64,000 nt of DNA from Bugula neritina. Taxonomy: Eukaryota; Animalia; Bryozoa. The stretch's first letter is position 1. Each line of letters starts with the position of its first letter. Where the stretch lies: NCBI GenBank assembly GCA_964035545.1, contig OZ037765.1, positions 12,906,698 through 12,970,697 on the forward strand, written 5' to 3'. This document shows positions 34,580 to 53,976 of the stretch, in pieces. A model generated the notes under the pieces. That model had not been told where the DNA came from, made no database searches, and saw only the letters and a list, made by a program, of their open reading frames with translations. The position numbers were made by a program, and so were the translations under genes.

Positions 34580-35705
34580 GGATTACTGTCATTTCGTACA
34601 CAAGTCATTTTGTTCACCGGTTGTTTCGTATACAAAATGGTTGTTTTGTACACAAACTGCTATCTATTTCGTAACCAAAATAAATAACAAATTAATCAAC
34701 TGAATAACCACTTAAATGATATTAGTTTACTTATTGATTGCATCCCAGCTCCCTCTCCCTCTCATTCTCTTTTCTAGCATGCTTTTGATGCAAAAATATA
34801 TTCATTAAGTTTAACTATGTGCTGCCATCTACTGATAACAGATAAAAATATCTTAACCAAAGTAGCAGTCCTCCTTGACATCTAGTTCTATCTACATATC
34901 ACAATCATAAATGTAAAGGATCTAACAAAGAAGCATGATAGCCCTTGTTACAAATACCACTAGAACTTTTATTTTTAGCTTTTAATGGTGATATTTGTTA
35001 TTATTAGATAGTTCATTCTCCTGTGCAGCAGTCAGCTGCCTAATAATAGGTAAAGCCTAACCGCCACCTTTGTTGAAGTCAGCTTTTAGGGTTTGACAGG
35101 AACTGATCCATCTTCCTTTATGAGGTCATTACATGTGCCCCATAGTTAGCTGACCCTAATTATAGCTAAATTTAGATGTAATTACCTTTTCTTTGTGATT
35201 GCCCTGGTATTTAAGGCAGCATTGAAACTCCAAAAAGACAGTCACTCATGTAGCCTAAGCTGAGCTACTTATTTTGTTAAGTTAAGTGACAAAGAGCTAA
35301 ATTTTGAAGATATTATAGCAAGCTCGTCAAGAGAATAAAGGTATTTTATTATTATTCTTTGCTATTTTTAACTTGATAATGCTTTATGTCTTTTATTACA
35401 ATTTTTATTGCTGTTATATTTTAATATTATATCGTGATGTTTGCTGGTATTTGAACAACTGTATTGTATGAGTTTTAGCACACCTATATGTATTCTTTAT
35501 GTTACTTGTAGTTTTTACGATTTAGAAGAAAATTAATAAAAGTGAGAGATTTGTTAAAACTTCTTCTCAGTCCGTACCAAAACCATTTTTGTGGCGAGAC
35601 CTTGCTCAACAATAAATAAGCATGCAGTGAAATGAAATGCGCAAGTTACTAATGGTACTTTAAAAGTGGGTGTGAAACGACTTGTGTACGAAATGACCCG
35701 TACCC
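34580..35705. mobile_element. non-autonomous TIR DNA transposon (MITE; possibly Mutator/Phantom-like)
   Basis: Left end GGATTACTGTCATTTCGTACACAAGTCATTT with subterminal TTTCGTA repeats. Right end AAACGACTTGTGTACGAAATGACCCGTACCC is its inverted copy. Inserted in a (CAT)n tract; no ORF. Confidence 0.75.
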
Positions 35706-35958
35706 ATCATCATCATGTGACCATCATCATTATCATACAATCACAGTGCTCATCGCATACTGACACTAACCTTAGCAACTAAGCGAGGTTATGGTGATGG
35801 CTAAATTAAAATGAAATCAACATCATGATTCATAATGATGGTAATGGTAGTCATATTGACCTTAATCATTGCCTAGAAGTAGAAGTAGATTATATCGTAG
35901 CATATTAATTTTGATTTAGACTAAAATATTAATAATAATATTACATTTACTGTCATAT

Positions 35959-36263
35959 TGTGGTGGCTCGTGGAGCTACCAGCAACACAATACGCAAGGT
36001 TGCGTATTGACCCGGAACAATGTATTAGCCAATTAGCTAAGCTGTTGGATAAGTAATAGTAGCCGCTTCGCGCTACTAGCTCAGTTGAGGATAGTGCTAT
36101 AAATTAAATAGACGTGCGTATCATTACTGTTGTACATTGGATTTTATTATGTATTCTTGTATTAAATATAACGATATCTACTCGACTTAACCGGTGAAGT
36201 TCCTCTAGTGATAAATAGACTCTCTTGGATAGCACATCAACCCTAAATCTGAAAACTATAACA
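35959..36263 (+). repeat. 5' LTR
   Basis: TGTGGTGGCTCG...AACTATAACA; TATA-like CTATAAATT; matches 43097-43401. Confidence 0.97.
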
Positions 36264-36264
36264 G

Positions 36265-36282
36265 TGGTGGCAGCGGTGGGAT
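36265..36282 (+). other. primer binding site, complementary to the tRNA-Leu 3' end
   Basis: TGGTGGCAGCGGTGGGAT, 1 nt after the LTR; reverse complement of the tRNA-Leu terminus ...AUCCCACCGCUGCCACCA. Confidence 0.9.
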
Positions 36283-36296
36283 AGTGTATATCAAAG

Positions 36297-37163
36297 ATGG
36301 AGACTGAAAGTGCTAGAATGCAACCACCCCCAGTAGAAGGTGAGCGTAGAAATGCTGTTAATCCTGTGAATCGTGAAGGAGAAGAAGCTTATAGACATTG
36401 CTTGAAAGCTCCCACCTTTACTGGGTCGGAAGATGTCGAACAATTTATACAAGAATTTAGAGAGGTAATGGAAGTTGCTAAATGGCCGCATAGAGTGGCC
36501 CTCATTCAATTGCGGAGAGCGGTGACGGAGCAAGCCAAGCCGTACGGAGTGGGAACGGACGTAGACGGCATACTGGCTGCGCTGCGGGCCCGTTTTGGCA
36601 CCTCCGTCATAGACGCTAGGACCAAGCTGGAGAGATTGTGCCGCACCCCGCGGACCTCGCTGCAAGAACATGCCGCGACGGTGAAGAAGCTGGCGCAGAT
36701 TGCATATAGCGATCTGCCAGCACAACACCAAGAGCGTTACACCTATGACGCCTTTGTACAGTCCCTAAACGACCTGGGCCTAGACCATCACCTACGAGCT
36801 AAAGGGATAACCAGAATAGAGGATGCCCTGAAGGCTGGAGAAGCTTACCTGTTGGCTACCAAAATGCATCGAGCACAAAGGAACCCACCAGTAGTTGGAG
36901 TCAGCGCTGCCAGGGCTACGACAGGCTCCGAAACCCTCCCGCTGGAAGCCGAAGTGGACCGTATGGTAGAGATGCTGGGACAATTGGTAACCATTCTGGC
37001 CGGTGCTGGCCCCGGTCAGGCCTTGCGGATGCCCCCAACACCTGTGGGGCAGGGCTGGAGTAGCGCTGATCAGGACCAGGGACAGAAAGGACGACCCCAA
37101 TACCAGGGGGCGTTAAACTGTCACGGCCCGCGGACACACTCCCTTCCCGCGGGCCGCAACTAA
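36297..37163 (+). CDS. gag: Gag (288 aa, capsid-like, no CCHC knuckle seen)
   Basis: First ORF after the PBS; KAPTFTGSEDVEQFIQEF...ALRARFG...SLQEHA...LAQIAY is a retrotransposon capsid pattern. Confidence 0.9.
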   Translation: METESARMQPPPVEGERRNAVNPVNREGEEAYRHCLKAPTFTGSEDVEQFIQEFREVMEVAKWPHRVALIQLRRAVTEQAKPYGVGTDVDGILAALRARFGTSVIDARTKLERLCRTPRTSLQEHAATVKKLAQIAYSDLPAQHQERYTYDAFVQSLNDLGLDHHLRAKGITRIEDALKAGEAYLLATKMHRAQRNPPVVGVSAARATTGSETLPLEAEVDRMVEMLGQLVTILAGAGPGQALRMPPTPVGQGWSSADQDQGQKGRPQYQGALNCHGPRTHSLPAGRN

Positions 37164-37169
37164 AGGAGT
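37112..37169 (+). promoter_or_regulatory. -1 programmed ribosomal frameshift signal (G UUA AAC + predicted pseudoknot)
   Basis: Slippery heptamer in the gag frame at 37112-37118, 5-nt spacer, 10-bp stem CGGCCCGCGG (37124-37133) / CCGCGGGCCG (37147-37156). Loop ACTCC can pair with GGAGT (37165-37169). The -1 frame is open downstream. Confidence 0.8.
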
Positions 37170-37451
37170 ATGGTGGAACGCGCCGTCGTCTGTCCGTACG
37201 GACACGGCGGAACATTCCACCCGAGTGGCAGGTACCACGCAGGACTAGTAGGCCCGCACAACGGCCCAGTACCTTCTCCCTGCCACTCGCTAACCGGTTT
37301 CACCGGTTACCTCGGGAGGAGGAGCCCGCCACTGAAATGGAGCCAGAAGGCCCAGTGGAGAGGCCCCAACCCCGCCGGCACCAACCTCGCCGCCGGAAGC
37401 CCCGTAAACCACGGGTGAAAACCCCGCCGTCCTGCCAAACCAGGACAGCAC

Positions 37452-40400
37452 ATGCGGGGGGGGGGGGGGGTGAAAGTACAACCACATGGAGAGAGCTATT
37501 TCTTACCCGGAAAGGTGGCCGGCAACGCCGTCACTTTCCTGCTCGACTCCGGTTGTACTACCAACCTTCTCAGTCGTAGAGTCTTTGAGGCACTGCCCCG
37601 CCGGGACAGGGATAGAGTACGACCGTATACTGGAGAACATGGCACCCTGGCAGACGGGTCATGTATCCCCTTTTATGGTATTATCGAGCTCTCTGGGCGT
37701 GTCCGAGATCAGGCTGTACAGGAGACCTTTATCATAGGTCAACTGGAGGAAGATGCTATCCTCGGAATGCCCTTCTTGAAGCAACACCAGTGCCGAATAG
37801 ATTTCAGTAAGTCGGTGGTGCTGATGGGCGGGCGAGAACTCGCCTGTGTGGATAAGTTTGGGCGTCCTCTGGTGGGCGGTGTTCAGGTAGTTCGGAACTG
37901 CACTGTACCCGGACGCTCCAGAGCTACTATCCACTGCCGAGTGAACAGCAACCGGATAGCCAGGCTCGGGGTCGTTGAAAGCGCGCACGAAAAGATCCAA
38001 CTCGCCAGTAGTTTAAACCGACTAACTGAGCGAGGGGAGGTCTTAGTGCAGTGCGTCAACCCCTTTACCGAGCCCATTGAGCTCCCAGCTGGGTCAATGC
38101 TGGGCCGGTTCCATTCCGTCCAGGAAGAGGACGTGGGCCCGTCGCTGGGTGACGCGACGGAGGCACCCCCTCGATACCCTATTCAGGGACGAGGGGCAGT
38201 CCCAACACATCTCCGGGAGTTATACGAAACAGCCAGTGGCGGCTGCGCGAGTAACAGAGAACGCCAAGCTATGGCCAAGTTACTACGCGACTACGGTGAT
38301 GTGTTCAGCAGCGGAGAACATGACGTGGGACTGACTGGAATTGTCAGACACGAAATACCGCTGACTGCAGGGACAGTCCCTGTCCGGCAACCCACGCGCA
38401 GGCTGGGGCCGGAGAAAGAGAAGGAGGTTAGCCGACAAGTACGGGATCTTCTGGACCGGGGACTGATAGAGCCCGCCCATAGTGCGTGGAGCTCGCCAGT
38501 CGTACTGGTCCGGAAGAAAGACGGCAGTTGGCGGTTCTGTGTGGACTACCGCAAACACAATAGCGTAACCATACAGGACGCCTACCCTCTACCTCGTATT
38601 GACGAGTCATTGGACGCCCTAGCCGGCAGCAAGTACTTCAGTACGTTAGACTTGCTAAGCGGCTATTGGCAGGTTCCTCTGAGTCCCGACGCCCAAGAGA
38701 AAGCGGCGTTCATCACACGGGACGGTTTGTGGAAGTGGAAGGTGCTGCCCTTCGGGTTAACCTCCGCCCCAGCCACCTTCCAGAGGCTGATGGAACAAGT
38801 CCTTAGCGGACTCCATTGGAAGACACTGCTGGTCTACCTCGATGATGTCATCGTAATCTCTCCAGACTTCGAGACACATGTCAGTCGTCTGCAGGAGGTT
38901 TTCGAGAGACTCCGAGGTGCCGGTCTTAAGCTCAAACCTTCCAAGTGCGCTCTGTTGCAGCCGGAGGTCAAGTACCTGGGGCACGTTGTCGGTCGAAACG
39001 GCGTGGCAACGGATCCCGAAAAGGTACGGGCAGTAGAAGACTGGGTCACCCCCCAAGACTTGACCGGACTCCGGGCTTTCTTGGGGCTGGTAGGGTATTA
39101 CAGGCAATACATACCAGACTTTGCGGGCATAGCCCAGCCGTTAAACCGGCTTACCGCAAAGGGAGTGACGTGGCAGTGGACTCCAGTCGAACAAGAAGCG
39201 TTCGACCGCCTCAAGGGCTGCCTCCTAACGGCGCCCATCTTGGCCTACCCAGACCCCACTCTGGAGTACATCCTAGACACGGACGCCAGTGACCAGAATG
39301 TTGGCGCTGTGCTGTCACAAGTGCAGGAAGGCCGAGAAGTAGTAGTAGCCTACTACAGCAAGTCTCTCTCTCCCGCTGAACGAAATTACTGCACTACCCG
39401 CAAGGAGCTGCTGGCAGTAATCAAGTCAGTGAAGCACTTCAGACCATACCTATATGGCAGGAAGTTTCGGCTGCGTACGGATCATGCCTCGCTGATTTGG
39501 TTGTGCAGGAGAGCAGAGCCCTCTAGTCAGGTCGCCCGGTGGCTCGAAATCCTAGCTGAATTCTCATACCGGATCGAACATCGACCGGGCAAGAGACACA
39601 GCAATGCGGATGGGTTGAGTCGCCGACCTGACGGAGGTTGCAAACAGTGTCTCAACATCGAGAGGAGGGATGGAGGTCCCCCGCGATGCGAGTTAGAGAC
39701 GCTGGCTCATCACGGAGCACCGTTTGACTGGGATCAAGGTCATCTCAGGCAAAGAGTTGATGAGTCCCCGGAGGATGTACAAAACCTCCGCGCCAACCCT
39801 GTACTGGCCGGTAATGTTCGAGAGCTGAAGAAGCTCCAAGAAGAGCTGCCTGGAGTCGTGGCAGACATATACCGGGCCAAACGGGAAGGGCGACGACCCA
39901 GCGAGGAACGCATACGACAGGGATGCGCCGAGTTCCGGCTATACTGTCAGCGTTGGGACTCGCTGCGGATCGGGCAGGATGGGTTGCTAACCATCTCTCT
40001 AGCTGCCAGCGGCAGACACCCGGAAAGGAAGAGGGTAGTCTGCCCCACAGCCATCCGCCGTGAGTTGATTTGGGATACTCACAAGCAGGCCCACGCAGGG
40101 GTCAAGCGAGTGATATCCAAATTACGACTCCGGTGGTATTGGCCGCAGATGGAGCGTGACGTCCGGCTCAGAGTCAAACAGTGTGAGATCTGCCAGGCCA
40201 GTAAGCATAGCCGCCCCCCTGGTGAAGCAGGACGGCGGAGGCTATATGCTGGTAGGCCCTGGCAAGTAGTCGCTGTAGACCTGGTCGGACCCATGCCCCT
40301 GACCCCCAGAGGCAATAATTGGATCCTAGTACTAACCGACCACTTTACTAGGTGGGCGGATGCTCTGGCTATCCCAGATGCATCAGCCCCAACAGTGGCC

Positions 40401-41744
40401 AGGGCACTAGACCAACATGTATTCTGTTATTTTGGGCTTCCCGAACAGATACACTCTGATCAAGGCGCTCAATTCCAGTCTCAACTGATGAGCGACCTTT
40501 GCCACCTCTGGGGAGTAAATCAGAGCAGGACCACCCCCTACCACCCTCAAGGTAACGGGGTGGTGGAGCGCAACAACCGGATGCTAGGTGATGCACTCCG
40601 GAGTCTCCTCCTTGGACGAGGTCAAGAGGAATGGGATACGGTGTTGCCGCAAGTCATGCGTGCATACCGTAGCACCCCACACACCAGTACTGGTGAGACC
40701 CCAAACCTCTTGATGCTCGGGAGAGAGACTCGTGTCCCTGACCATCTCACCTATCACGTTCCAGAGCAAGACAACTCGGTTCACGAGTATGCCAGTGATC
40801 TAGTGGAACGGATGAAGGCCGCACACGATATACTGCGTCAACAGCAGTGGAAGGTGCGGCACGAAGATTCCGATGAACCACCTCTCTATCAAACGGGAGA
40901 TAAGGTGTGGATGGTCAATTACCGTAGGCGTCGCGGACAGGCTGACAAACTGAAGCCTAAGTTCGTAGGCCCCTACGTGGTCGTCGAGGCTATGCCCAAT
41001 CATACGTACAAGATCGAGCGCTCAGGACAGGTGTCTATCCAGAATGAGTCTCGCTTGAAACCGTATTGGGCTAGCCCTGACGGAGTGGGAGAAGCCCCCC
41101 CGTTGTTAGAGCCCAGGAGGCAGACAACGACGCGCGGGCGACGGCGGCATGGACCTGAATACGAAGTGGTCATACCGCGGGAGGAAAACTTGGTGAGAGA
41201 GGAGCGGCAGCTTTTGTCAACAGAAGCATGTCCGCCACCGCCAAGTCTAATTCCATCACTTCCAGAAACCGAGCCGGTTCCGGAAGTGCAAACCCCCACG
41301 GAGGGAGGGGCTCCATCCGGAGAACAAGAAGAGGTGACCTCTAACGGTGAAGTAGAGACGCCATTAGAGGCCCCTACTAACGAACCGGCAAGCGTGTCAC
41401 CCCCCCTAGAAAGGGGACAGCGTACGAGGAAACCCCCACCGTATTTGAAAGACTTCATATGTGACTGCATTAGAAGCGGCGCACATGAAAGTCTAGGGGA
41501 AAACCGTACGATAAAATGTTGGAGTTGTGAACCCCACGCAAATATCAACTTTTGCGAGGGCGGAATAGTGGGAGGAATTAATGCGCGTAAAGCAAATAGT
41601 TCCGACCTCGTGCCTCAGAAACGATGCTCAGCCTTTTCTTATGCTGACATCGCCAAAGGCAGACGTACCTCACAACCAGCTCCAACCTTACCAAGAACGT
41701 TGAGTATGGACATTAATACCGAGTTCCCAGGTAAGCCAGTATAA
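37452..41744 (+). CDS. pol: Pol polyprotein: protease, RT, RNase H, integrase with GPY/F and a long C-terminal tail
   Basis: LLDSGC (PR); WSSPVVLV, FCVDYR, LPFGL, YLDD (RT); LDTDAS, ERNYCTTRKELLA, TDH (RH); H-x3-H...CEIC, VAVDLVGP, HSDQG, GNGVVER, FVGPY (IN). The true start is upstream via frameshift. Confidence 0.97.
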   Translation: MRGGGGVKVQPHGESYFLPGKVAGNAVTFLLDSGCTTNLLSRRVFEALPRRDRDRVRPYTGEHGTLADGSCIPFYGIIELSGRVRDQAVQETFIIGQLEEDAILGMPFLKQHQCRIDFSKSVVLMGGRELACVDKFGRPLVGGVQVVRNCTVPGRSRATIHCRVNSNRIARLGVVESAHEKIQLASSLNRLTERGEVLVQCVNPFTEPIELPAGSMLGRFHSVQEEDVGPSLGDATEAPPRYPIQGRGAVPTHLRELYETASGGCASNRERQAMAKLLRDYGDVFSSGEHDVGLTGIVRHEIPLTAGTVPVRQPTRRLGPEKEKEVSRQVRDLLDRGLIEPAHSAWSSPVVLVRKKDGSWRFCVDYRKHNSVTIQDAYPLPRIDESLDALAGSKYFSTLDLLSGYWQVPLSPDAQEKAAFITRDGLWKWKVLPFGLTSAPATFQRLMEQVLSGLHWKTLLVYLDDVIVISPDFETHVSRLQEVFERLRGAGLKLKPSKCALLQPEVKYLGHVVGRNGVATDPEKVRAVEDWVTPQDLTGLRAFLGLVGYYRQYIPDFAGIAQPLNRLTAKGVTWQWTPVEQEAFDRLKGCLLTAPILAYPDPTLEYILDTDASDQNVGAVLSQVQEGREVVVAYYSKSLSPAERNYCTTRKELLAVIKSVKHFRPYLYGRKFRLRTDHASLIWLCRRAEPSSQVARWLEILAEFSYRIEHRPGKRHSNADGLSRRPDGGCKQCLNIERRDGGPPRCELETLAHHGAPFDWDQGHLRQRVDESPEDVQNLRANPVLAGNVRELKKLQEELPGVVADIYRAKREGRRPSEERIRQGCAEFRLYCQRWDSLRIGQDGLLTISLAASGRHPERKRVVCPTAIRRELIWDTHKQAHAGVKRVISKLRLRWYWPQMERDVRLRVKQCEICQASKHSRPPGEAGRRRLYAGRPWQVVAVDLVGPMPLTPRGNNWILVLTDHFTRWADALAIPDASAPTVARALDQHVFCYFGLPEQIHSDQGAQFQSQLMSDLCHLWGVNQSRTTPYHPQGNGVVERNNRMLGDALRSLLLGRGQEEWDTVLPQVMRAYRSTPHTSTGETPNLLMLGRETRVPDHLTYHVPEQDNSVHEYASDLVERMKAAHDILRQQQWKVRHEDSDEPPLYQTGDKVWMVNYRRRRGQADKLKPKFVGPYVVVEAMPNHTYKIERSGQVSIQNESRLKPYWASPDGVGEAPPLLEPRRQTTTRGRRRHGPEYEVVIPREENLVREERQLLSTEACPPPPSLIPSLPETEPVPEVQTPTEGGAPSGEQEEVTSNGEVETPLEAPTNEPASVSPPLERGQRTRKPPPYLKDFICDCIRSGAHESLGENRTIKCWSCEPHANINFCEGGIVGGINARKANSSDLVPQKRCSAFSYADIAKGRRTSQPAPTLPRTLSMDINTEFPGKPV

Positions 41745-41761
41745 GTCTTGTATTCCTATTC

Positions 41762-42835
41762 ATGGAAACGGGCTCGATGCCAGTAAATTCTGAACTAATT
41801 CAGCAGATTGAATCAGAATTACTGGGAACCACGTTTCATGTGAATGACGATGAAGACACTGTAATGGCCGACGGTCTGTTAGACCTGGAGCTAGACACTG
41901 TTCTTGGTCAGTCCACACATGATTCATCAGTTCCTCGAGTGCATTCCAAAAGCTGTGACTCTCAGGCTAGCAACGGTCGACAGTCACTAGAATTATGTTG
42001 TAAAGATCCACCGCGATCTAACAATAATTCTACTTTTGTAGACACACTCGCGCCCGTCTCTCCGGGCATGCCTTCTCTAGAGATGGCGTGGGACCCAGAG
42101 CCGGCCCCAACAACTCCTACAACCAGGCAACTGCCACCCCAGTTGGAAGCAACCTCCAACTGGATTACCCCTGCCACAGAGAGAGAAATCAGGACCCATC
42201 AAGGAGGTGAGAGTAATCGTGAATGCAACCTCTGCCAGCAGCGATTCACAACCCACCGCAGACTAAAAGTACACTTGCCGCAGCACTACATCACCACTTT
42301 CTGCCCTTGCGGAGAATATAGCTACAATCGTGATTACCTACTGCGGCACCAACGTACTATGCAGTGCTATCAAGGGCATGTCTATGAAGTAGACGAATCA
42401 TCATATCCTGCCTTTCTCAACGCCATCAAACCACTCATCACTGACTCAGCTCGGCTATCTCGCCTGGAGCAAGGCTTCCCTTCCCCGCGACCCATCATCT
42501 CTGGAGCCGCAGATAAACCTACACAGTCTACTAACTCTCCACCTCACAGTCCTATACGCATGCCGCATACCTTTCCTCGTGTCGTACTACAGAGAGTAGA
42601 CACCAATGCGTATACACTCCCTCCTCCCCTTCCATCCTCAGAGCGGAAAAGACACAGGCAACCAACTTCCTCTCGCTCGTCCCCCTGGGCCCGTAACCTA
42701 CGTGAGGTAGAAGCTAGGGCGCATGACTTGGAGCAAGAAGTGTACAGGCTGGCCCCACGGGTACAGGCAGCATCCAGTGAACTCAAATATTTACAGGAGT
42801 CTATTAAACGCATGAAGCGTGCGGCCCGCCGCTAA
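41762..42835 (+). CDS. ORF3: acidic N-terminus, two zinc fingers, Pro/Ser-rich linker, C-terminal coiled coil (not Env)
   Basis: Uninterrupted 357-aa ORF inside the element. CNLC-x12-H-x3-H (canonical C2H2) and CPC-x12-H-x5-C. Heptad-like RNLREVEARAHDLEQEVYRL...LKYLQESIKRMKRAARR. No signal peptide or TM segment. Confidence 0.82.
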   Translation: METGSMPVNSELIQQIESELLGTTFHVNDDEDTVMADGLLDLELDTVLGQSTHDSSVPRVHSKSCDSQASNGRQSLELCCKDPPRSNNNSTFVDTLAPVSPGMPSLEMAWDPEPAPTTPTTRQLPPQLEATSNWITPATEREIRTHQGGESNRECNLCQQRFTTHRRLKVHLPQHYITTFCPCGEYSYNRDYLLRHQRTMQCYQGHVYEVDESSYPAFLNAIKPLITDSARLSRLEQGFPSPRPIISGAADKPTQSTNSPPHSPIRMPHTFPRVVLQRVDTNAYTLPPPLPSSERKRHRQPTSSRSSPWARNLREVEARAHDLEQEVYRLAPRVQAASSELKYLQESIKRMKRAARR

Positions 42836-43085
42836 CCCGAGTCTACCTACAACTCCCTACTACTCATTCCCCTACCTCTCTGTGGCATTCCCTACCGTAA
42901 TGGTGGCACGTACTCTATATGTAGATAGGACCTTCTCTTGCTTATTACTTAGTGCACGTTATATATACCTGTATATTTTTTACCAGTTGTTGTTTTTTTA
43001 TTACTTTTATACTGTTCTCTTACCCCCCACTACGAAGTATACGTTTTATGTGAATCTTATTTTATCAGAAAGTGGGCTTTCTGCT

Positions 43086-43096
43086 GGAGGGGGCAG
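43086..43096 (+). other. polypurine tract
   Basis: GGAGGGGGCAG immediately before the 3' LTR. Confidence 0.85.
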
Positions 43097-43401
43097 TGTG
43101 GTGGCTCGTGGAGCTACCAGCAACACAATACGCAAGGTTGCGTATTGACCCGGAACAATGTATTAGCCAATTAGCTAAGCTGTTGGATAAGTAATAGTAG
43201 CCGCTTCGCGCTACTAGCTCAGTTGAGGATAGTGCTATAAATTAAATAGACGTGCGTATCATTACTGTTGTACATTGGATTTTATTATGTATTCTTGTAT
43301 TAAATATAACGATATCTACTCGACTTAACCGGTGAAGTTCCTCTAGTGATAAATAGACTCTCTTGGATAGCACATCAACCCTAAATCTGAAAACTATAAC
43401 A
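43097..43401 (+). repeat. 3' LTR
   Basis: Identical by eye to the 5' LTR; followed by the ATAT TSD. Confidence 0.97.
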
Positions 43402-44749
43402 ATATTCACTTTCAGTCTATCACTCACCATCACCGTGACTATCAGTGTGGGCATGGCTATCACTATCAGAGTTCAGATACTGATAGTCATAGTGATAGTC
43501 AATGGCATATTAATTATTATTAATCAATAATTTAATAAAATTAAATATAATATTAATACTAATTTTAAATTTAATTAATAAATTATAAACTAGAAACTCA
43601 AATATTCATAACTCATAGCTAAATTTTAAATTTAGGCTACGTTTATGCAACATAAATACCATAGCTAAACTTCTATTAAATTTAGAATTTAGGAAGGCAC
43701 TTTTTCAAAACTTTTCCTAGCAAACATGAATATATTATTATGTACAACTATTTCAGTAGTAGTGGCCGCTTTGACTTATTAATATTATTTCAAAATCATG
43801 GCGAAAGGGTTAAAGGTTACACTTCTCTCTGTTTAATGCTAGCAACGCCCAATGAACTACAGCTCCTCAGCTAACGTTCAATGGCAACGCCCACTGAGCT
43901 GGAATAGACTAATAATTATTGAGTTCATTGGCAACGCCCGTCAGCTTTAGCGCAGACTGAGATTAAGAACGACTACTAGTACAGCAGTAAAAATCGGTAC
44001 GGTTACAGATTACACCTACACGCGCAATAAACCTCGATGAAAAAAAGCATGCTAATAGTCTGAAACCAAGTTACAATGTGAGCAAAATTTACTAAAAACA
44101 GCACGGAAATGGGGGCTAATAAAAAGTGTTAGTTGTCCGAACTTTGAACCCCGACGCCAAAACCGAGACTCTCGAATCAACGCATGCAGTGACCACAAAC
44201 TGGGGAGGGCGTTTCAAGCGATTGTTTTTGTGAGCGAGCACATGGCGAAAAAAAATTACCTTTCAGTTTTATTCAAAATAGCATCCTGTGTGTAGAAGTG
44301 CACCCAAAGCTACAGCAGATTGAACCGCCTTACTTTAAGCTTTCAAGTGACAGAATTGATGTTATCAGATATTCTGATTGCAACGTAAGGAAAAGCAAGG
44401 CCAAGTGTTTAATTTTAATTTTTATCATTAATCATTATCATTATGATTAATAATTATCTTATGAATTATGATACTCATACTGATAGTGATACTGATTATT
44501 ATTATAAATATAATATTATCTGTAAGTCAAAGTGTATTTGTAAAGCAGACAATATCATAATGTTACCTCCAGTTACCTCCAGTTTACGATCATGCTAGAC
44601 CACTAGGTAGCAGAAGCGGCATGCCTCATATGTTTACGGTTGGTCAGAAAATAAAATGCATACAATAGTCTATAAATTGGTTGCAGTGTGTGTTGCAATA
44701 TTGTTTATTAGTACAGGTAAGTTAACCTGTCAATGTTTAGATTATTCTG

Positions 44750-47514
44750 TGTGTAAATTAGTCTTGCAAGGATTGTTCCCTTTAAGGCCACGGATTGTCC
44801 GTGGCAAGAAGCTGTTATAATAGCAGTTATTATTGGTGCTGACTGATCTTGGCTGTCCTAGTGTTTGGACCCTAGTTTGGATAAAACTTTCCAGGGTATA
44901 TTAGTTCGTCATACGCTGCAGAGAAGGCTGGGTGATATTCTTCCTTTTGGAGTATCCTCATAAGGAGTCTTAGCCGTTGAGTTCTTCTTCTTTCATCGAG
45001 GGCGGCCAGCTCCAGTCTTTCTTTTGCTTCTCGCACTCCTCTTCTACCCTTGATGTTAGCTATGGCTCTTACTGCCGGTGTTTGTACCTCTTCGATGGAA
45101 TTTATTTCTTTTGTAGTATAGGGGTCCCAAACAGCAGAAGCATAGTCTAGGTGAGGAAGGCATAGGGATTTGTAAGCCATGAGTCTCACTTTTTCGGGTG
45201 CCCAGTGCAAAGCTCTTTTGATCATCCCCAGTTGTTTGTTTGCTAGCAACATTTTGCTCTGGATATGATTATCAAACTTCAGGTTGGCCTGTAGAGTCAC
45301 TCCGAGGTATGTTGATTTGTCCACCTGTTCTAGAACTGTGCCATTTAACGTGTAGTGTGCTGGTATATCTTGCTCTTTGAATGCCATAATTTTGCTCTTT
45401 TTAACATTAAACTCCATACCCCACTTTGAAGCCCAACTTCCTGCTGCATCTATGTTCCTTTGAAACCTTAGTCTGTCTTGGGCATCTGAGACAGGCTGGT
45501 AGAGGAGGGTGTCATCTGCGAAGAGACCAACTTCACAATCAACACAGTCAGGAAGATCATTTATTAACACGAGAAACAGTATGGGGCCGAGCACAGAGCC
45601 CTGAGGTACCCCAGACGTCACTGGCAGTGGTTCTGACTTTTTACCATCGAGTACGACCCTCTGAGATCGGTTTAGGAGGAAGTTGTGTACCCATCTGAGC
45701 AGATAGTCTTTCATTGGTGCAATTGTTCGTAGTTTCTCCATTAGAAGGGCATGGGGGACCCGGTCAAATGCTTTTGTAAAATCTAGGACTGCTGCGTGAA
45801 CAGCCTTATGTTTATCGACATAGTTCAGTATCTGATGGAGAGTGGCGCATAATTGGGTCTCGCAGGACAAGCCCTGGCGAAAGCCGTGTTGTCTTGTGCT
45901 CAGTACATTGTCAACGTTGGCAAGTATTTTACATAGGATGAGATGTTCTGCCATTTTACATGGGATGCTAGTGAGTGAGATGGGTCGATAGTTTTGAGCA
46001 CAATCCTCTGCACCGCTTTTATGGATAGGGGTCACATACGCCTCTTTCCACTGGGTGGGGAGCTTCTGTTGATTCATAGAAGTTTTGTATATGATCGCAA
46101 GACAAGCGGATATTAGTGGGAGATCAACCATCAGATCTGCCTTCCTCAGGCCATCTGGACCTGGAGCTTTTCCAGGCTTGAGGTTCTGTATTAACTTGGC
46201 AATACCATTGCTGTTGATATCTGGTGGATTATCTATGTTTGCTGAGTTGGGACCAAGTGATGTCAGTTGGTGCCCACTGTTGAACTGGGAGTGGAAGAAT
46301 TTGTTGAAGGTTTCCGCACAGTTTTCTGGATCTGCGTTAAGGGTACCATCAGTCATTTTGAGTTTTATGCCATTTTTGTTACTTGAGTTTCCTTTGAGGT
46401 GCCGGTAAAAGGGCTTACTGTTGCCTTCTAGGAGTGGTTGGATGATTTTATTGTGACCATATTCACTTTTTACCATCCTAAAGACTTTCTTAGCTGTTTT
46501 CCGGATTTCCTTGTATTTTGCATAACTGGATAAGTCCCCGTTTGTTTTGTAGTGATTATAGCTTTTCCTCTCTTTACGTGATATCCGTCTACACTCTTTG
46601 TTAAACCAAACAGGTTCATTTTTAAGCTTAGACGACAGTACTTTCGTTTGGACATGGTCACATATGGCCTGTTGTAGACTAGATGAAAAATGATCCCACA
46701 TTTCCTGTACATCATCCAATTCATCTAGGTCATGTTTAGTTTTTTGCAAATCTTCCCGGAATTTGTTGATATCTACTCTGTGGTAATCTTTGACAGTTTT
46801 GGAGGTTACTATATGGTGGTCTTTTGCTTTGTTTTATCGGATATTTGCTTTTATCATGGCGTGATCACTTAGCCCTGGGAAGATTACGTCTTGGGATGTT
46901 AAGTCTTGGGGGGAGTTGGTGCAAAGTAAGTCGAGCGTGTTGCCATGAATGTGGGTTGGTGAGGTTATTAGTTGACTTAGGTTATAGAAGTTCAACATAC
47001 ATAGGAATGAGTTATGAAGGACCTTATCCTGGGCCTTCAGTTTGGGTTGATAAGTGTGCCAATTAATGTGAGGGAGATTGAAATCCCCGGCTAAGATGAT
47101 GTGGTCATTGGGGAACTGTTGAGTTAATAATTCTAGGTTGCTACTCAATATGGATACATCTCTATCATGTGGGGGTCTGTAGTAACATCCGACAATTAAG
47201 CTCTCCTCTATTCTTACAAATATGATCTCGGCACTAGTTTTATCTTCTATGTTAATTTGGGTAGAGCGCAGGTTGTCATCAATGGCGATTAAGACCCCAC
47301 CCCCATTTACATTACGATACTTTCTGTAGATCCTTTTGTTGTTATAATCAAAGATGGTGTGACTTGGTATCATCTGATTTATGTGTGTCTCAGTCAGGCA
47401 GATTATGTCGGAATTATATGTTTGTGATGATAGTTCAATAGTTTTGCCTTTGAGAGATCTCACATTGGCAAGAAAGAATTTTAAACACTGGTCTGTTTGG
47501 TCATGTATCGCCAT
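44750..47514 (-). pseudogene. LINE ORF2: APE endonuclease + reverse transcriptase, frameshifted
   Basis: ANVRSL, IICLTETH, GGGV, YRPP, GDFN, TLDL, SDH (EN). KAPGPDG, YRPISLT, QHGFR, LDFTKAFD, GVPQGSVLGP, FADD (RT). C-terminal SFLPRTIR lies in another frame after 44872. Confidence 0.93.
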
Positions 47515-48510
47515 TCCCTGAAGGAGATTTTGTCTGTATTTTCATATTTCTTATCCGATAGTCAGTTTCTTGGTCAGTGTCACTGTTTTCCCCTTTCATT
47601 TGTTTTATCTCTTGCCGAAGGGCATACTGCTGGTCACGGATCTCTTTGCATTCATCAAGTTTGCAGTAAATCTTGCGTCCACGTAGTGTAGCATTTGTTC
47701 TTTTTAGGAATTCCCACTTTGAATATTCGTCTGGAAATTCTATTTTAATCGGCCTTGGTTTGTTTTTGTCAACTGGTCCTGAGGTCTGTAAGCGTATTGC
47801 TCTTAGGGGTTTCGGAGTTGCATGGAAAGTATCACTCGTCATTAGGTCTTTAATCATCTCCAGTGCGCTTTTACCTTCCTGTTCATCTATGCCATAAAGA
47901 ACGGCATTATTTTTCCTGTTTTCAGTCTCCCGTTGTTCAATACTCTTCTTCAGCAGGTTTCGAGCACTGTCGCTGATCTCCATCCCTTTCTTCAGGTTTC
48001 AGTATTTGACTTTGCAGCGTCGGCATATGATTTCTCTAGTTTTGTCATACTTTCTTCAAGGGCAGTGTTTGTTGCTCCAATCTTTGCATTAATTTGTTGC
48101 ATTATGTCTTCAATTTTATTAAGCTTTCTTGAGTGGGTGCTGTGAAGCGCAAGAGAGTCTTCACCGTTGTTGTTCACCCTGTCTCAGCCTTGAAGAGAAG
48201 CTTCAATGACTGGAAGGCATGTGTTGCAGAACCATTTCACATTCTTTTCATCCATTTTGTCTAGCGTAGCAACATCTGAATTGGTGAGGCTTTGGCAGGT
48301 ACCATGGAACCAATCATCACAAAAATCACATTGGATCCACTTAGCACCAAATTTTTGAGAAAGGCCTTTTGTGTTAGTAACATAGCAATCGACAATGTTA
48401 CAAGTTTTGCATTCTGGGTTGGTCGAGTCTTTGTTTTTGTCATTTTGAGACTGTTGTGATCCTGGTTGTGGTTGGCTTTGAGTGTTCCAGTCACCAGCCA
48501 TCACGGACAA
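47501..48510 (-). pseudogene. LINE ORF1: PHD finger, coiled coil, RRM-like region; split into three frames
   Basis: CKTC...WIQCDFCDDWFHGTC...WFCNTC (48184-48510), KSYADAAK, RKNNAVLYGIDE...KPRPIKIEF. Confidence 0.85.
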
Positions 48511-49050: not shown

Positions 49051-50268
49051 ATTACCTCTGATTACCTCTGATGAGGTAGAACGCTCTTGACCATCATAAG
49101 ACGTTAGTAGAGCGCCTCATGTGTGTGACAGGGAGTGTTCCGTTGTTTTTTTTAGTGCTTCCGCATTACCGCTGATATTATTCAATTTAGATGGTGATAT
49201 TTAAAAGGAAAATTGATAGGTAAGCTAGGTAAACCCTCTCATGTCGCGTATCGTTCTTGGTAAGAAACTTTGGTGGTAACAGCTAGAGCGAGAAGAAATG
49301 GAGTTAGGTAAACCTTTTGTTGCTGATCTCGTAGTTACGGACATGAGAGAGCGATTTTCCACAACCTCATCATAGTCTGATGAAAGTGTACTGTGTGTGG
49401 CTTCAGACTGTAGAATACGTGTCAATAGTGTGAGTCTATGATTTTTACGCCTCGCTTGTAATGGTAGTAGACCCAGTTCGCATCGAGCGTCACTAACACT
49501 CTCTCGCCCCTTGAGACCTGATATGAACCTCACAGCACGGTTCTGAACCATTTCTATATCATGTATGGTGGTTTTTAAATAAGGATCCCAGAGGATATCT
49601 GCATAATCCAACCATGGACGGCAGAGGCTGGTGTAAGCCAAGAGTTTGCCATTTTTTGGAACATCATGGAGAACAAACTTTATTGCTCCCAGGACTCTGC
49701 TATTTTTTGTGATTTCAGCGCAATGTGTTTGTCAAATTTAAGGTTACTCTGCATGGTCACACCGAGATACTTGGTCTCTTCAGTCTATTGGAAAGGTGTA
49801 CTCCCAAGCTTATAAGATGGAAGGCCTGTTTGGCGACCAAATGATATAGCATGGCATTTACTTTCATTAAAAGGCATCTTCCACTGTTGTGACCAGTTAT
49901 ATACTGCATCGATATTGACCTGGAAGTCTGAGCATCTGCCTCTGAGTTTACTCTTTGGTATAACAGGGTGTCGTCTGCATAAAGACTGACACAACAATTG
50001 ACACAACTTGGTAAATCGTTAATATAAACCAGGAATAGTGTGGGTCTTAGCACAGATCCTTGGGGGACGCCGGATGTTACTGGGAGCTCAGTTGAGCATG
50101 AGCCTTTGATTACAACTCTCTGTTTTCTGTTGGTGATGAAATCTTGAATCCAATTTATAATCTGTGGTTTAACTTCTGGAATGCGTTGTAGTTTCAGTAG
50201 CAGTAGGGAATGGGGGACCTTGTCAGATGCTTTTTTGAAGTCTAGAACAATTGCATGTGTGTCTTGTG
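49051..50268 (-). mobile_element. 5'-truncated CR1-group LINE (RT C-terminal half)
   Basis: AIVLDFKKASDKVPH, GVPQGSVL, YADD, SFLPRTIRD; (ATTACCTCTG)2 tail at 49051-49070. Confidence 0.88.
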
Positions 50269-50269
50269 A

Positions 50270-53200: not shown

Positions 53201-53976
53201 AGTGAGACTTGGAAAGGGGTTATCGGCAAAGACGGTATTGGTAATGTGAATGCAAATGGTCTGATGCTTCTCAGCTTCATCTAGTGTGGTAATGTCAGCC
53301 ATCTCAATTAACTTCCTAGTAGAAGTTAGATGGTTCACTCCAGCAATAAATTGTTTTAACAAATTATCCTCCAACAGGTTGCCAAACTTACAGTCTCTGG
53401 CTGCTTCTCGAATTCAGATTTGAAAGTTTACTATGCTTTCACCTTCCCTTTTAGAGATAGATCTCAACTGAGTCTGTTCCAAGTGCTGATTAGTGGTTTT
53501 GCCATAGTGTGAGATTAACAGTTTGTGTGAGTTACAAAAGCAACATCTTTAGGTATTTCAGGAGACACCAAATCTCTAAGTGTCTGATACTGTTTTGCTG
53601 ATAATCCCATAAGTAGAATGAGCACCCTATCCCCATCTGTAGTCTTGGTAACTAGAAAATAACAGTCTAATCTCTCCAAATAGGACTCAACTTCTGTACC
53701 CTTTCCGAAACTAGGAATGGCTATGCTTGCAGCCATAATAAATACTAACAGAACATAGGTTAACATCTACTCGTCGCCAATGTTATATTGTCATCCGTGT
53801 GGTATTGTATTAATTGCAGAATTACTCAGATTTAAATAAGCAATCAAATATAGTTCTACTGAATTAAAATCCTCACACATGAGTTCAACTAGCATATCCC
53901 TACGCATGCCCACAAACATATAATTATATAATATCTAAAACTAGAAATATGATATCGCCTCGATGTAAACACAACA
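50270..53976 (-). mobile_element. decayed Ty3/Gypsy element (5' LTR, PBS, gag, PR, RT; 3' part lost), interrupted by an RTE
   Basis: Putative LTR 53781-53976 (TGTT...AACA). PBS TGGCGACGAG (tRNA-Ser-like, approx. 53770-53779). gag SYLERLDCYF...LRDLVSP; knuckle CFRCSKAGH...CPA...CRDC; FLIDSGA; RT WVSPSVVVPK, LCVDM, MADD. Confidence 0.88.
51802..53272. mobile_element. RTE-clade LINE insertion, 5' portion inverted and middle deleted
   Basis: TSD AGCTTCATCT (51792-51801, 53273-53282). 3' end on the - strand (LLYASETW, RLRWSGHV, RLPKQILYGEL, C2H2 finger, (AG)n tail). 5' UTR and EN on the + strand (LATWNVRTL, AALQETRL, GVGFAI, LGDFNARVG). Confidence 0.92.

What the first reader, a model, noticed from the sequence alone, without database searches (positions are those of the whole stretch)
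41762..42835. Young Gypsy element carries a transcription-factor-like zinc-finger ORF3 instead of env
Seen: an intact 357-aa sense ORF between pol and the PPT of an element with identical LTRs. It has an acidic/hydrophobic N-terminus (DDEDTVMADGLLDLELD), a perfect C-x2-C-x12-H-x3-H finger, a second C-x-C-x12-H-x5-C finger, a basic patch (ERKRHR) and a C-terminal coiled coil ending in a basic tail. There is no signal peptide or TM helix, so it is not Env. Known: third ORFs of Ty3/Gypsy are usually Env-like or of unknown function. Inference: an element-encoded DNA-binding regulator (LTR trans-activator, anti-silencing factor or integration tether), analogous to accessory genes of complex retroviruses. 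This is the best candidate for an undescribed system in the window.
Basis: partly seen in the sequence, partly recalled or inferred. Interest (0 to 1): 0.9.

Follow-up and report, generated by a model that had tools for sequence, protein, structure and literature searches.

The report
Detached zinc-finger module of Gypsy Pol
A young jumping gene in an animal genome carries an extra, well-conserved gene for a small two-zinc-finger protein that related elements have fused to the end of their integration enzyme, so it likely helps the element find or hold its landing site on DNA rather than serving as an envelope or a classic gene switch.

Summary
Window 35959-43401 is a 7,443-bp Ty3/Gypsy element with identical 305-bp LTRs and a 4-bp target duplication. 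It has gag, pol with the domains PR-RT-RNH-IN, and an intact 357-aa ORF3 (41762-42835) with the stated finger patterns, basic patch and C-terminal coiled coil. No hydrophobic segment fits a TM helix.

ORF3 is a real gene under constraint:
- 59 unnamed relatives were found, 11 of them full length at 49-74% identity.
- An exhaustive search found 317 clusters.
- Neutral simulations almost never keep the frame open.
- Its composition matches the element, not the host.

The new point is that the ORF3 core is not special to this element. Two C2H2-like fingers packed in a roughly 110-aa domain occur as an in-frame C-terminal extension of Pol, behind the integrase, in 29 of the 120 closest Pol relatives. 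It is often followed by a coiled-coil-like helix. The window's element nests among these fused forms, so ORF3 is a detached Pol module.

This favours the integration-tether reading (about 0.4) over LTR trans-activator (0.15) or RNA export/packaging factor (0.2). No function was tested. No Pfam family, solved structure or paper found here describes the module. Verdict: new variant of a known kind (accessory module of LTR retrotransposons), interest 0.55.

The parts
35955..35958 (+). Target-site duplication, left copy (ATAT)
   Evidence: Sequence. A contig of run X1 joins the two flanks with one ATAT between them (table 5c).
35959..36263 (+). 5' LTR, 305 bp, TG..CA
   Evidence: (300 bp, 100%), extended to 305 of 305 identical bases.
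36264..36284 (+). Primer-binding-site-like stretch directly after the 5' LTR (TGG...)
   Evidence: Sequence. The matching tRNA was not tested; no tRNA gene is in the window.
36297..37163 (+). gag ORF, 288 aa, stop TAA 37161-37163; no Pfam family and no CX2CX4HX4C knuckle
37452..41744 (+). pol ORF, 1430 aa from the first ATG (open from 37419): PR 19-108, RT 353-512, RNase H 576-704, IN zinc domain 865-919, IN core 935-1032, SH3-like CTD 1149-1189, then a roughly 240-aa tail without a family
   Evidence: Pfam. Same frame as gag, separated by TAA 37161 and TGA 37416.
41762..42835 (+). ORF3, 357 aa (P0001), the finding
41762..41935 (+). ORF3 aa 1-58: acidic N-terminal part (net charge -13) with a short helix (aa 9-21) and the conserved motif M-A-D-x-L-L-D-L (aa 35-42). 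Specific to the free-standing ORF3 subfamily.
   Evidence: Not matched in fused Pols.
41936..42046 (+). ORF3 aa 59-95: conserved block (R-V-P ... E-L-C-C-K ... S-N-N-N-S), predicted disordered, role unknown
   Evidence: Very high contig depth at 42006-42043 in runs X4 and X5.
42143..42469 (+). ORF3 aa 128-236: compact zinc-finger core domain (leading helix with W134/T139, two fingers, strand Y-x-V-D, two helices)
   Evidence: AF2 core model with pLDDT 90.4 and pTM 0.81. Invariant columns. The same domain is found in 29 of 120 Pol relatives.
42224..42286 (+). Finger 1, aa 155-175, C-x2-C-x3-F-x5-L-x2-H-x3-H
   Evidence: Sequence. C155, F162, L168, H171 and H175 are invariant in 16 sequences. 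Pfam zf-C2H2 is below threshold.
42302..42367 (+). Finger 2, aa 181-202, C-x-C-x12-H-x5-C (in fused relatives mostly C-x-C-x12-H-x3/4-H)
42641..42658 (+). Basic patch E-R-K-R-H-R (aa 294-299), NLS-like; K296 invariant
   Evidence: Nuclear import was not tested.
42683..42829 (+). C-terminal coiled-coil-like helix, aa 308-356
   Evidence: A weak bZIP-like profile match, E 0.06.
43086..43096 (+). Polypurine tract abutting the 3' LTR
   Evidence: Sequence.
43097..43401 (+). 3' LTR, identical to the 5' LTR
43402..43405 (+). Target-site duplication, right copy (ATAT)

Best explanation
ORF3 is the free-standing form of a conserved two-zinc-finger plus coiled-coil module that related Ty3/Gypsy elements carry fused to the C-terminal end of Pol behind the integrase, and it likely works as a nucleic-acid-binding tether that guides or anchors the element's integration complex on host DNA. 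Shown: the ORF, its conservation, the fused relatives, and the predicted fold of two C2H2-like fingers in one compact domain followed by a heptad-repeat helix. Inferred: (1) the fingers bind DNA; (2) the coiled coil makes the protein oligomeric; (3) in fused relatives the module travels with integrase into the pre-integration complex and biases where the cDNA is inserted, as the chromodomain does in chromoviruses; (4) in this sublineage the detached protein is made on its own, from a spliced or re-initiated message, enters the nucleus through its basic patch, and meets the integration complex in trans, perhaps through the subfamily-specific acidic N-terminal motifs.
For: Position:
- A profile of the ORF3 family finds the core once, near the C-terminus at residues about 1350-1960, in 22 of the 120 best Pol relatives. 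A broader core profile finds it in 29 of 120.
- Pairwise BLASTP confirms this, for example P0063 at E 1e-15 and P0067 at E 4.6e-15.
- In every case it lies behind the IN core and the SH3-like CTD.

Phylogeny:
- In a 33-row IQ-TREE pol tree rooted on 4 outgroup rows, the ingroup of 29 rows (support 100) holds 19 fused forms and its basal 5-row clade is all fused.
- The window's pol plus P0061 (support 100) is sister to the fused pair P0066/P0075 (support 82).
- The 95-row FastTree gives the same picture.

Fold:
- The core model is confident, pLDDT 90.4.
- Its only structural matches are DNA-bound tandem C2H2 fingers. Foldseek's best is ZBTB7A at E 0.099. VIA gives 50-57 residues at rmsd 2.4-3.0 with ZBTB38, Kaiso, ZNF524 and SALL4, at Z up to 3.3.
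- The PDB profile's best match is Sal-like fingers, E 0.003.

Charge: the core is basic in 23 of 28 sequences, median net charge +6.

Architecture kept:
- A charged heptad-like helix follows the module in 17 of 29 fused Pols, against 4 of 29 in an equal-length upstream control.
- At least 13 of the 150 listed representatives match from the core through the coiled coil.

Constraint.

Precedent, from papers:
- Integrase C-terminal parts direct targeting in Ty1 (PMC7459421, abstract).
- The Ty3 intasome paper covers targeted integration (10.1101/2021.07.27.453949, abstract).
- Engineered HIV integrase-Zif268 and integrase-E2C fusions bias integration towards the fingers' sites (PMC8149907, passages read).
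Against: - No binding of any kind was tested.
- There are only two fingers. The inter-finger linker is 5 residues rather than the usual 7, and finger 2 has an unusual C-x-C spacing.
- Structural matches are weak (Z 3.3, E about 0.1), and the whole domain has no match.
- No target-site preference could be examined. There is one copy in the window, an AT-rich flank with TSD ATAT, no tRNA gene, and no DNA of sister copies.
- The detached ORF3 has an acidic N-terminus (net charge -13) that looks like an activation or export motif, which a pure tether would not need.
- A physical link to integrase or Gag is unshown.
- 91 of the 120 Pol relatives show no fused module. Many of them are cut proteins: the near-identical pair P0134/P0135 differs in this respect.
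- Two X1 contigs skip parts of ORF3, by 399 and by 188 bases, so some copies are deleted.
Confidence: 0.4

Rival explanations
1. RNA-binding helper. The module binds the element's own RNA and serves in nuclear export of unspliced genomic RNA, in packaging, or as a nucleic-acid chaperone. It would then be a functional counterpart of Cer1 CERV, of Rev, or of the missing nucleocapsid knuckle.
For: - CERV of the Gypsy-type element Cer1 is a non-env accessory protein with a leucine zipper, a candidate NLS and NES and a Cys-rich putative finger, and it is needed for gRNA export (PMC10309623, abstract and section 9).
- ORF3 has the same kinds of parts: a basic patch, a coiled coil, and an M-x3-L-x2-L-x-L pattern at aa 35-43.
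- The element has no CX2CX4HX4C knuckle in any forward frame, and only 1 of 120 Pol relatives has one, so another nucleic-acid binder may be needed.
- Consensus-like splice sites exist: donor AAG|GTGAGC at 36340, and acceptors at 41619, 41659 and 41696.
- C2H2 fingers can bind RNA (general knowledge).
Against: - The fourth hydrophobic position of the NES-like pattern is Pro or Ser in several relatives.
- As a Pol tail the module would be made in small amounts in the cytoplasm, which suits neither an export factor nor a nucleocapsid substitute.
- No splice junction was seen. The only RNA-library data are 20 low-depth contigs.
- No sequence comparison with CERV was made.
Confidence: 0.2
2. Transcriptional regulator. 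ORF3 is a dimeric DNA-binding trans-activator of the element's LTR: acidic activation region, fingers, NLS and zipper.
For: - The domain logic of an activator is all present in the detached form: N-terminal net charge -13, fingers, a basic patch and a heptad helix.
- There are weak profile matches to C/EBP-beta and MafG zippers, E 0.06-0.4.
Against: - The acidic N-terminus is confined to the detached subfamily. In 29 of 120 relatives the module is the tail of Pol, a poor design for a transcription factor.
- The bZIP basic-region signature is absent, and the basic patch is separated from the helix by a Ser/Pro-rich disordered stretch (pLDDT below 50 up to aa 307).
- No repeated candidate binding site in the LTR was looked for or found.
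Confidence: 0.15
3. Counter-defence factor. The module binds a host silencing component or host DNA or RNA to blunt the repression of the element.
For: - Conserved short linear motifs in disordered regions (M-A-D-x-L-L-D-L, and the E-L-C-C-K...N-N-N-S block) are the sort used to engage host proteins.
- Other Gypsy elements noted in this scan carry chromatin-directed extra genes (unchecked notes).
Against: There is no similarity to any known silencing suppressor or host factor. The core is conserved across a deep clade, whereas antagonists usually evolve fast.
Confidence: 0.08
4. Passenger without a role. ORF3 is a captured host exon or a decaying leftover that happens to be open in this copy.
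For: A RefSeq protein of the bryozoan Watersipora subatra (XP_067940963.1) holds two copies of the module at 42-45% identity. A cellular gene with this domain may therefore exist.
Against: - 11 full-length relatives lie at 49-74% identity, and there are 317 clusters.
- 0 of 300 neutral simulations stay open at 55% identity.
- Listed variants are half synonymous against 24% expected, with codon positions 14/6/20.
- GC and CpG match the element, not the host.
- The module is spread through the Pol tree.
Confidence: 0.03

Closest known systems
Chromodomain of chromoviruses (Ty3/Gypsy elements with a chromodomain at the integrase C-terminus)
   Same: A non-enzymatic accessory module placed at the very end of Pol behind the integrase, kept across a whole lineage. 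It is the accepted example of an element-encoded integration-targeting domain (recalled; PMC6338049 names it as a well-known accessory domain, passage).
   Different: The fold and the presumed ligand differ: two zinc fingers, predicted to bind nucleic acid, against a chromodomain that reads methylated histone. No chromodomain was found by Pfam here. In the window's sublineage the module is a separate ORF with its own N-terminal region.
CERV of the C. elegans Gypsy-type element Cer1 (PMC10309623)
   Same: A non-env accessory protein of a Gypsy-type element with a leucine zipper, a candidate NLS/NES and a Cys-rich putative zinc finger, and no relatives of known function.
   Different: CERV is made from a spliced 5-exon mRNA that shares exons with gag. 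It has a G-protein-like domain and a ring-forming M domain, and it acts in gRNA export (section 9). ORF3 lies after pol and has C2H2-like fingers, and its relatives are Pol tails. The two sequences were not compared.
Engineered integrase-zinc-finger fusions (HIV-1 IN-Zif268, IN-E2C)
   Same: The same architecture as the fused relatives: integrase followed by C2H2 fingers. These fusions bias integration towards the fingers' sites (PMC8149907, passages).
   Different: They are man-made, have three to six canonical fingers, and have no coiled coil. The natural module has two atypical fingers inside a larger domain, and its binding is untested.
Family-specific non-env ORF3s of bdelloid rotifer LTR retrotransposons (GDSL, DEDDy, CC, TM types; PMC5408684)
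   Same: A third ORF after pol that is not an envelope gene, and a modular exchange between ORF3 and other positions.
   Different: None of those types is a zinc finger: the word 'zinc' occurs 0 times in that paper's text. Here the module alternates between Pol-fused and free forms.
Cellular tandem C2H2 zinc-finger DNA binders (ZBTB7A, Kaiso, ZBTB38, SALL4, CTCF)
   Same: Finger 1 has the full C-x2-C-x3-F-x5-L-x2-H-x3-H pattern. The predicted two-finger unit superposes on DNA-bound finger pairs at rmsd 2.4-3.0 over 50-57 residues.
   Different: Only two fingers, a 5-residue linker, and C-x-C in finger 2 with a Cys as last ligand in this subfamily. The fingers are embedded between extra helices in one compact domain. 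Pfam scores are below threshold.
Retroviral trans-activators and export factors (Tax, Tas/Bel1, Rev, Rem)
   Same: Small regulatory proteins encoded 3' of pol.
   Different: No similarity was found in any search. Those proteins are never parts of Pol. What is known about them is recalled, not tested here.

Membership tests
Ty3/Gypsy (Metaviridae) LTR retrotransposon | Direct LTRs ending TG..CA, flanked by a short target-site duplication | tested here: met
   305-bp identical LTRs, TG..CA, ATAT on both sides.
Ty3/Gypsy (Metaviridae) LTR retrotransposon | Pol domain order PR-RT-RNase H-IN | tested here: met
   Pfam coordinates 19-108, 353-512, 576-704, 865-1032.
Ty3/Gypsy (Metaviridae) LTR retrotransposon | Gag with a recognisable capsid/nucleocapsid | tested here: inconclusive
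   A 288-aa ORF sits in the gag position without a Pfam family and without a CCHC knuckle. Its fold was not predicted.
Classical C2H2 zinc finger (Pfam PF00096) | C-x2-4-C-x3-F-x5-L-x2-H-x3-5-H spacing | tested here: met
   Finger 1, aa 155-175; the ligands and F162/L168 are invariant. Finger 2 departs from the pattern (C-x-C, last ligand Cys).
Classical C2H2 zinc finger (Pfam PF00096) | Score at or above Pfam's gathering threshold | tested here: not met
   15.6 bits against 25.2 (PF00096), and 14.9 against 27 (PF13894).
Classical C2H2 zinc finger (Pfam PF00096) | Beta-beta-alpha fold, tandem arrangement like DNA-bound fingers | tested here: inconclusive
   The predicted strand-strand-helix units are confident. 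The best structural matches are all tandem C2H2 DNA binders, but weak: E 0.099 and Z 3.3.
Retroviral/errantiviral Env | Signal peptide and transmembrane anchor | tested here: not met
   The highest 19-aa hydropathy mean is 0.58; 0 of 59 relatives reach 1.6.
bZIP transcription factors | Continuous basic region with the N-x7-R signature running into a leucine zipper | tested here: not met
   The heptad helix is present and C/EBP-beta matches at E 0.06. But the basic patch (294-299) is separated from the helix by a disordered Ser/Pro stretch, and the signature is not in the sequence (the signature itself is recalled).
Chromovirus-type integrase C-terminal targeting module | Chromodomain after the integrase | tested here: not met
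   No chromodomain family in the window's pol, in ORF3, or in 7 fused Pols.
Chromovirus-type integrase C-terminal targeting module | Module located at the Pol C-terminus behind IN across a lineage | tested here: met
   29 of 120 Pol relatives, always a single copy near the C-terminus. In the window itself it is detached.
Chromovirus-type integrase C-terminal targeting module | Biased integration sites | not testable with these tools
   No genome is held, no related loci were found, and there is one copy in the window.
Rev/CERV-like export factor | Expression from a spliced message and a need for it in export of unspliced RNA | not testable with these tools
   Only contigs of one RNA library were available, with no junction. 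Candidate splice sites are consensus matches only.

The most novel reading that the evidence does not exclude
A large clade of animal Gypsy elements encodes its own zinc-finger integration guide. This would be a sequence-reading DNA-binding module that nature fused to integrase long before gene therapists did, and that one sublineage has released as a trans-acting, oligomeric targeting factor with its own nuclear-import and partner-binding motifs. If so, the fingers would carry a readable code for where each family lands.
Probability: 0.3. Interest if true: 0.8.

Novelty: new variant of a known kind. Interest (0 to 1): 0.55.

Why it matters
Accessory modules that steer integration are known for few LTR elements: chromodomains, and the Ty1, Ty3 and Ty5 integrase parts. 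A natural integrase-linked zinc-finger module would add a new, experimentally tractable way of choosing targets. Its fused and detached forms would allow a direct test of whether targeting can work in trans. It would also be a compact natural scaffold for directed-integration tools. Even if the role proves to be RNA handling or regulation, the module is a sizeable protein family (317 clusters) that has no Pfam model, no solved structure and, in my searches, no paper.

Tried and rejected
- Word-based search for longer, fused forms of ORF3 found none. This was a false negative: a local profile search of the Pol relatives found them.
- Linking ORF3 hits to Pol hits through equal contig lengths failed. 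None of the contig lengths recurs among the 120 rows.
- DNA context of relatives was not obtained. Two scans of metagenome contigs and two of viral contigs confirmed no relative. No genome is held for the window. dN/dS on aligned genes and the test 'always between pol and the 3' LTR' for the free ORF3s could therefore not be done.
- Complex prediction (integrase CTD plus tail against ORF3) was never run because the queue was full. Nothing follows from this.
- A -1 frameshift joining pol to ORF3 was considered and rejected. The overlap of the two open frames is 7 bases, without a slippery heptamer, and 11 of the 12 full-length family members in alignment A1 (the window's ORF3 plus 11 relatives) start at the same Met.
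- The NES reading of aa 35-43 was weakened by non-conserved fourth positions.
- The clathrin-box-like L-L-D-L-E was noted, but its last residue varies, so it was not pursued.
- ESM Atlas gave only generic C2H2 clusters at 0.86-0.91, with recognition 2084 below the usual level.
- VIA search with the full-length model returned only coiled-coil hits for aa 302-357, at Z up to 5.6.
- Rfam found no family in 35700-43700.
- RNA run X2: 20 contigs at mostly 95-99% identity lie on gag, pol and ORF3. DNA carry-over cannot be excluded, and no junction was seen.
- Parts of ORF3 without cover in X4 and X5 are not evidence of absence.
- Four full-text searches found no paper describing a C2H2-type ORF3 or Pol C-terminal zinc-finger module in Gypsy elements. 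Subscription journals and Repbase are not covered.
Full report
**1. The observation**

The ORF is there as described. Window 41762-42835 (+) translates to 357 residues ending in TAA. It lies inside a 7,443-bp element bounded by two direct repeats. One search reports them as 300 bp, and a base-by-base extension shows 305 of 305 identical bases (35959-36263 and 43097-43401). The repeats start TG, end CA, and are flanked by ATAT on both sides. A TGG-led primer-binding-like stretch follows the 5' LTR, and a purine run abuts the 3' LTR.

Pfam places PR, RT, RNase H, the integrase zinc domain, the integrase core and an SH3-like CTD in Gypsy order along the 1430-aa pol ORF. ORF3 starts 17 bases after the pol stop, in another frame, with a stop nine codons upstream of its ATG.

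- the acidic/hydrophobic stretch at aa 29-45;
- C155-x2-C158-x12-H171-x3-H175;
- C181-x-C183-x12-H196-x5-C202;
- ERKRHR at aa 294-299;
- a C-terminal helix in which 13 of 14 a/d heptad positions are hydrophobic.

No window of 19 residues exceeds a hydropathy mean of 0.58, and none of the 59 relatives reaches 1.6. It is not an envelope protein.

**2. Is it a real gene?**

- A word-seeded search of 5.8 billion proteins found 59 relatives at E<=0.01, all unnamed. One is 74% identical, ten are full length at 49-52%, and one is at 35%.
- The later exhaustive profile search of 1.84 billion representatives found 317 clusters at E<=0.001, 128 at E<=1e-10 and 51 at E<=1e-30.
- Conservation is uneven, in the way expected of a working protein. 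It is high in the finger core and in three short N-terminal blocks, and low in the linkers: 0.60-0.79 against 0.34-0.44 mean identity.
- In simulations of neutral substitution on the window's ORF3, 0 of 300 sequences keep an open frame by the time they reach 55% amino-acid identity, and 1 of 300 at 74%.
- In run X1, the best DNA holder and possibly the source sample, 6,508 contigs lie on the element at 85% likeness or more. The 12 listed indels are all in LTRs or untranslated parts, except one in pol that is seen only in run X2.
- On ORF3 alone, 467 X1 contigs were laid. No X1 indel is listed, but two single contigs skip 399 and 188 bases, so some copies are deleted.
- Of the 40 best-supported variant rows (35 more were not shown), 20 are synonymous, against 24% expected for random single changes. 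They fall 14/6/20 on codon positions 1/2/3.
- One listed change alone would make a stop at codon 74. Relatives have Leu there, so it may travel with a neighbouring change. This was not resolved.
- ORF3's GC (0.51) and CpG ratio (0.72) match gag and pol (0.56; 0.75-0.81). The host flank has 0.31 and 0.30.

**3. What the protein looks like**

The full-length model is confident only for aa 121-245 and for the helix 308-356. The rest is predicted disordered. Folded alone with 60 sequences, aa 118-253 gives pLDDT 90.4 and pTM 0.81. The model has a leading helix, two strand-strand-helix fingers, a short strand and two closing helices.

No Pfam family reaches threshold; zf-C2H2 scores 15.6 bits against 25.2. 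A profile search of all PDB sequences gives Sal-like fingers at E 0.003 and C/EBP-beta zippers at E 0.06. Foldseek finds nothing below E 0.099, and every top row is a DNA-bound tandem C2H2 protein.

VIA-align against 48,161 chains gives at best Z 3.3. These matches are again two-finger units of DNA-bound proteins (ZBTB38, Kaiso, ZNF524, SALL4), over 50-57 residues at rmsd 2.4-3.0. Nothing matches the whole domain. With the full-length model only coiled coils matched.

So the core is two C2H2-like fingers built into a larger domain that has no described counterpart. The weak scores do not show that the fold is new.

**4. The decisive result: relatives carry the module on Pol**

I searched the window's Pol against the same protein collection. 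6,249 proteins had E<=1e-50 among 7,951 scored candidates, and the best 120 were listed. I then ran the ORF3 profile over those 120 on the script machine.

- 22 of 120 Pol proteins (1529-2161 aa, 45-57% identical to the window's Pol) contain the ORF3 core as an in-frame C-terminal extension. Some have the C-terminal helix as well.
- A broader core profile raised this to 29 of 120. In each case there is one copy near the C-terminus.
- BLASTP confirms the matches pairwise.
- The Pol alignment with the window ends at about residue 1230-1350. A linker of 100-500 residues without a family follows, and then the module.
- By the narrow profile, the other rows split into 53 that end soon after the integrase, 36 with long tails and no module, and 9 cut before the end of the integrase. 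Near-identical pairs that differ only in length (P0134/P0135) show that 'no module' often just means a cut protein.
- The earlier word-based search for longer forms had found nothing, which shows the limit of that tool.

**5. Order of events**

The first tree was a FastTree of the RT-IN region with 95 rows. 26 of 121 rows were left out for incomplete cover of window Pol 400-1150. It scatters 28 fused forms through a 71-row clade (support 88) that contains the window. Two outer clades of 6 and 16 rows have none.

The second tree was an IQ-TREE quick tree of 33 rows that I chose: the window, 28 ingroup rows and 4 outgroup rows. The 29-row ingroup has support 100 and 19 fused members, and its basal 5-row clade is entirely fused. 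The window plus P0061 (support 100) is sister to the fused pair P0066/P0075 (support 82).

The simplest reading is that the fused state is older and that the window's sublineage detached the module. The detached state is stable. In alignment A1, 11 of the 12 full-length family members (the window's ORF3 plus 11 relatives) begin at the same Met with a conserved N-terminus, and the 35% relative P0060 is also a free ORF. The N-terminal 120 residues of ORF3 are specific to the detached subfamily.

**6. Mechanism**

What is shown is anatomy. A basic, finger-bearing domain (23 of 28 cores net positive, median +6) is followed by a heptad helix. That helix follows the module in 17 of 29 fused Pols, against 4 of 29 in an upstream control by a crude score. 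At least 13 of the 150 listed representatives match from the core through the coil. The module sits at the end of Pol or just after it.

What I infer from position is a role at integration. The C-terminal parts of integrases are where LTR elements and retroviruses carry their targeting determinants (Ty1: PMC7459421, abstract; the chromodomain is recalled). Man-made integrase-zinc-finger fusions do bias integration (PMC8149907, passages). I put this reading at 0.4.

The detached form adds an acidic N-terminus and conserved short motifs. Together with the basic patch and the zipper, these also fit an activator (0.15) or an export/packaging helper like Cer1's CERV (0.2; PMC10309623, abstract and section 9). 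The lack of any CCHC knuckle in the element keeps the RNA-handling reading alive.

How ORF3 is translated is open. There is no slippery site for a frameshift. Consensus-like splice sites exist, and the 17-base gap would also allow re-initiation. The only RNA-library data are low-depth contigs without junctions.

**7. Comparison with what is known, and novelty**

- Four full-text searches found no description of a C2H2-type ORF3 or Pol-terminal zinc-finger module in Gypsy elements. I also read targeted passages in the rotifer ORF3 paper, the accessory-domain opinion paper, the 2026 envelope survey and the DGLT-A paper. Repbase and subscription journals were not covered.
- Pfam has no model for the module in the window's protein or in 7 fused Pols.
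- Of 25 longer representatives, 23 have no Pfam family, one has a retroelement protease, and one has weak finger hits. None has the architecture of a cellular transcription factor.
- The only named relative is a RefSeq 'uncharacterized protein' of the bryozoan Watersipora subatra with two copies of the module. Its nature is open.
- Unchecked notes from this scan record other zinc-binding extra ORFs behind Gypsy pol genes in unrelated hosts. A sequence look-up found none of this family.

I file the finding as a new variant of a known kind: an accessory module of LTR retrotransposons that alternates between a Pol-fused and a free form.

**8. Limits**

- No DNA of sister elements could be fetched. 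Target-site preference, codon-level dN/dS and the position of the free ORF3s relative to LTRs are therefore untested.
- The co-folding tool was never available.
- Depths from contigs were not used to rank genes.
- The host is an animal, judged from a C2-domain exon. I did not try to identify the unnamed samples.

Noticed in passing
window 37161-37452: gag and pol are in the same frame but separated by two in-frame stops (TAA 37161-37163, TGA 37416-37418), with a 169-codon open frame (37070-37579) in another frame bridging them. No indel relative to this copy is listed there among the X1 contigs, so the arrangement seems to belong to the family. How Pol is made is unclear.
   Followed up: partly
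window 35959-43401: No CX2CX4HX4C zinc knuckle in any forward frame of the element, and only 1 of 120 Pol or Gag-Pol relatives has one.
   Followed up: partly
window 42006-42043: This short stretch inside ORF3 (the codons of the E-L-C-C-K...N-N-N-S block) has summed contig depth 86,598 in run X4 and 29,304 in X5. That is tens to hundreds of times its neighbours, as if it were shared by many more repeats or held a nucleotide-level signal.
   Followed up: no
window 35931-43418: One X1 contig joins the two flanks without the element, with 33 letters between that hold a single ATAT but also differ from the window's flanks by small indels. It is an empty allele or a paralogous copy of a low-copy flank.
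   Followed up: partly
P0182 / P0326 (NCBI XP_067940964.1, XP_067940963.1, Watersipora subatra): A RefSeq 'uncharacterized protein' of a bryozoan holds two tandem copies of the module (aa 85-195 and 363-493 of the 644-aa isoform, 45% and 42% identical to the ORF3 core) and no Pfam family. It is either a domesticated gene or a gene model drawn over element copies.
   Followed up: partly
P0318 / P0328 (unnamed, ENA): Proteins of 1145-1208 aa with a retroelement aspartyl protease at the N-terminus and the module at 899-987, but no RT or IN family at E<=0.001. They may be an internally deleted derivative that keeps the module.
   Followed up: no
P0159, P0160, P0164, P0179: More distant Pol relatives carry a dUTPase domain (PF00692). 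One of them (P0159) also has the zinc-finger module.
   Followed up: no
window 44872-47541 (-), 49757-51043 (-), 52526-53284 (+): Non-LTR retrotransposon remains (reverse transcriptase plus AP-endonuclease domains) fill the right half of the window. A Baculo_FP-like ORF lies at 57183-57926 (-) and a gag-aspartyl-protease fragment at 59676-60230 (-).
   Followed up: partly
window 9748-10803 (-): A long exon-like ORF with a C2 domain. It resembles tandem-C2/synaptotagmin-type animal proteins, which places the host among animals.
   Followed up: partly
window 41731: A consensus-like splice donor (CAG|GTAAGC) sits 11 bases before the pol stop, and another (AAG|GTGAGC) at gag codon 15 (36340). Neither was tested.
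   Followed up: no
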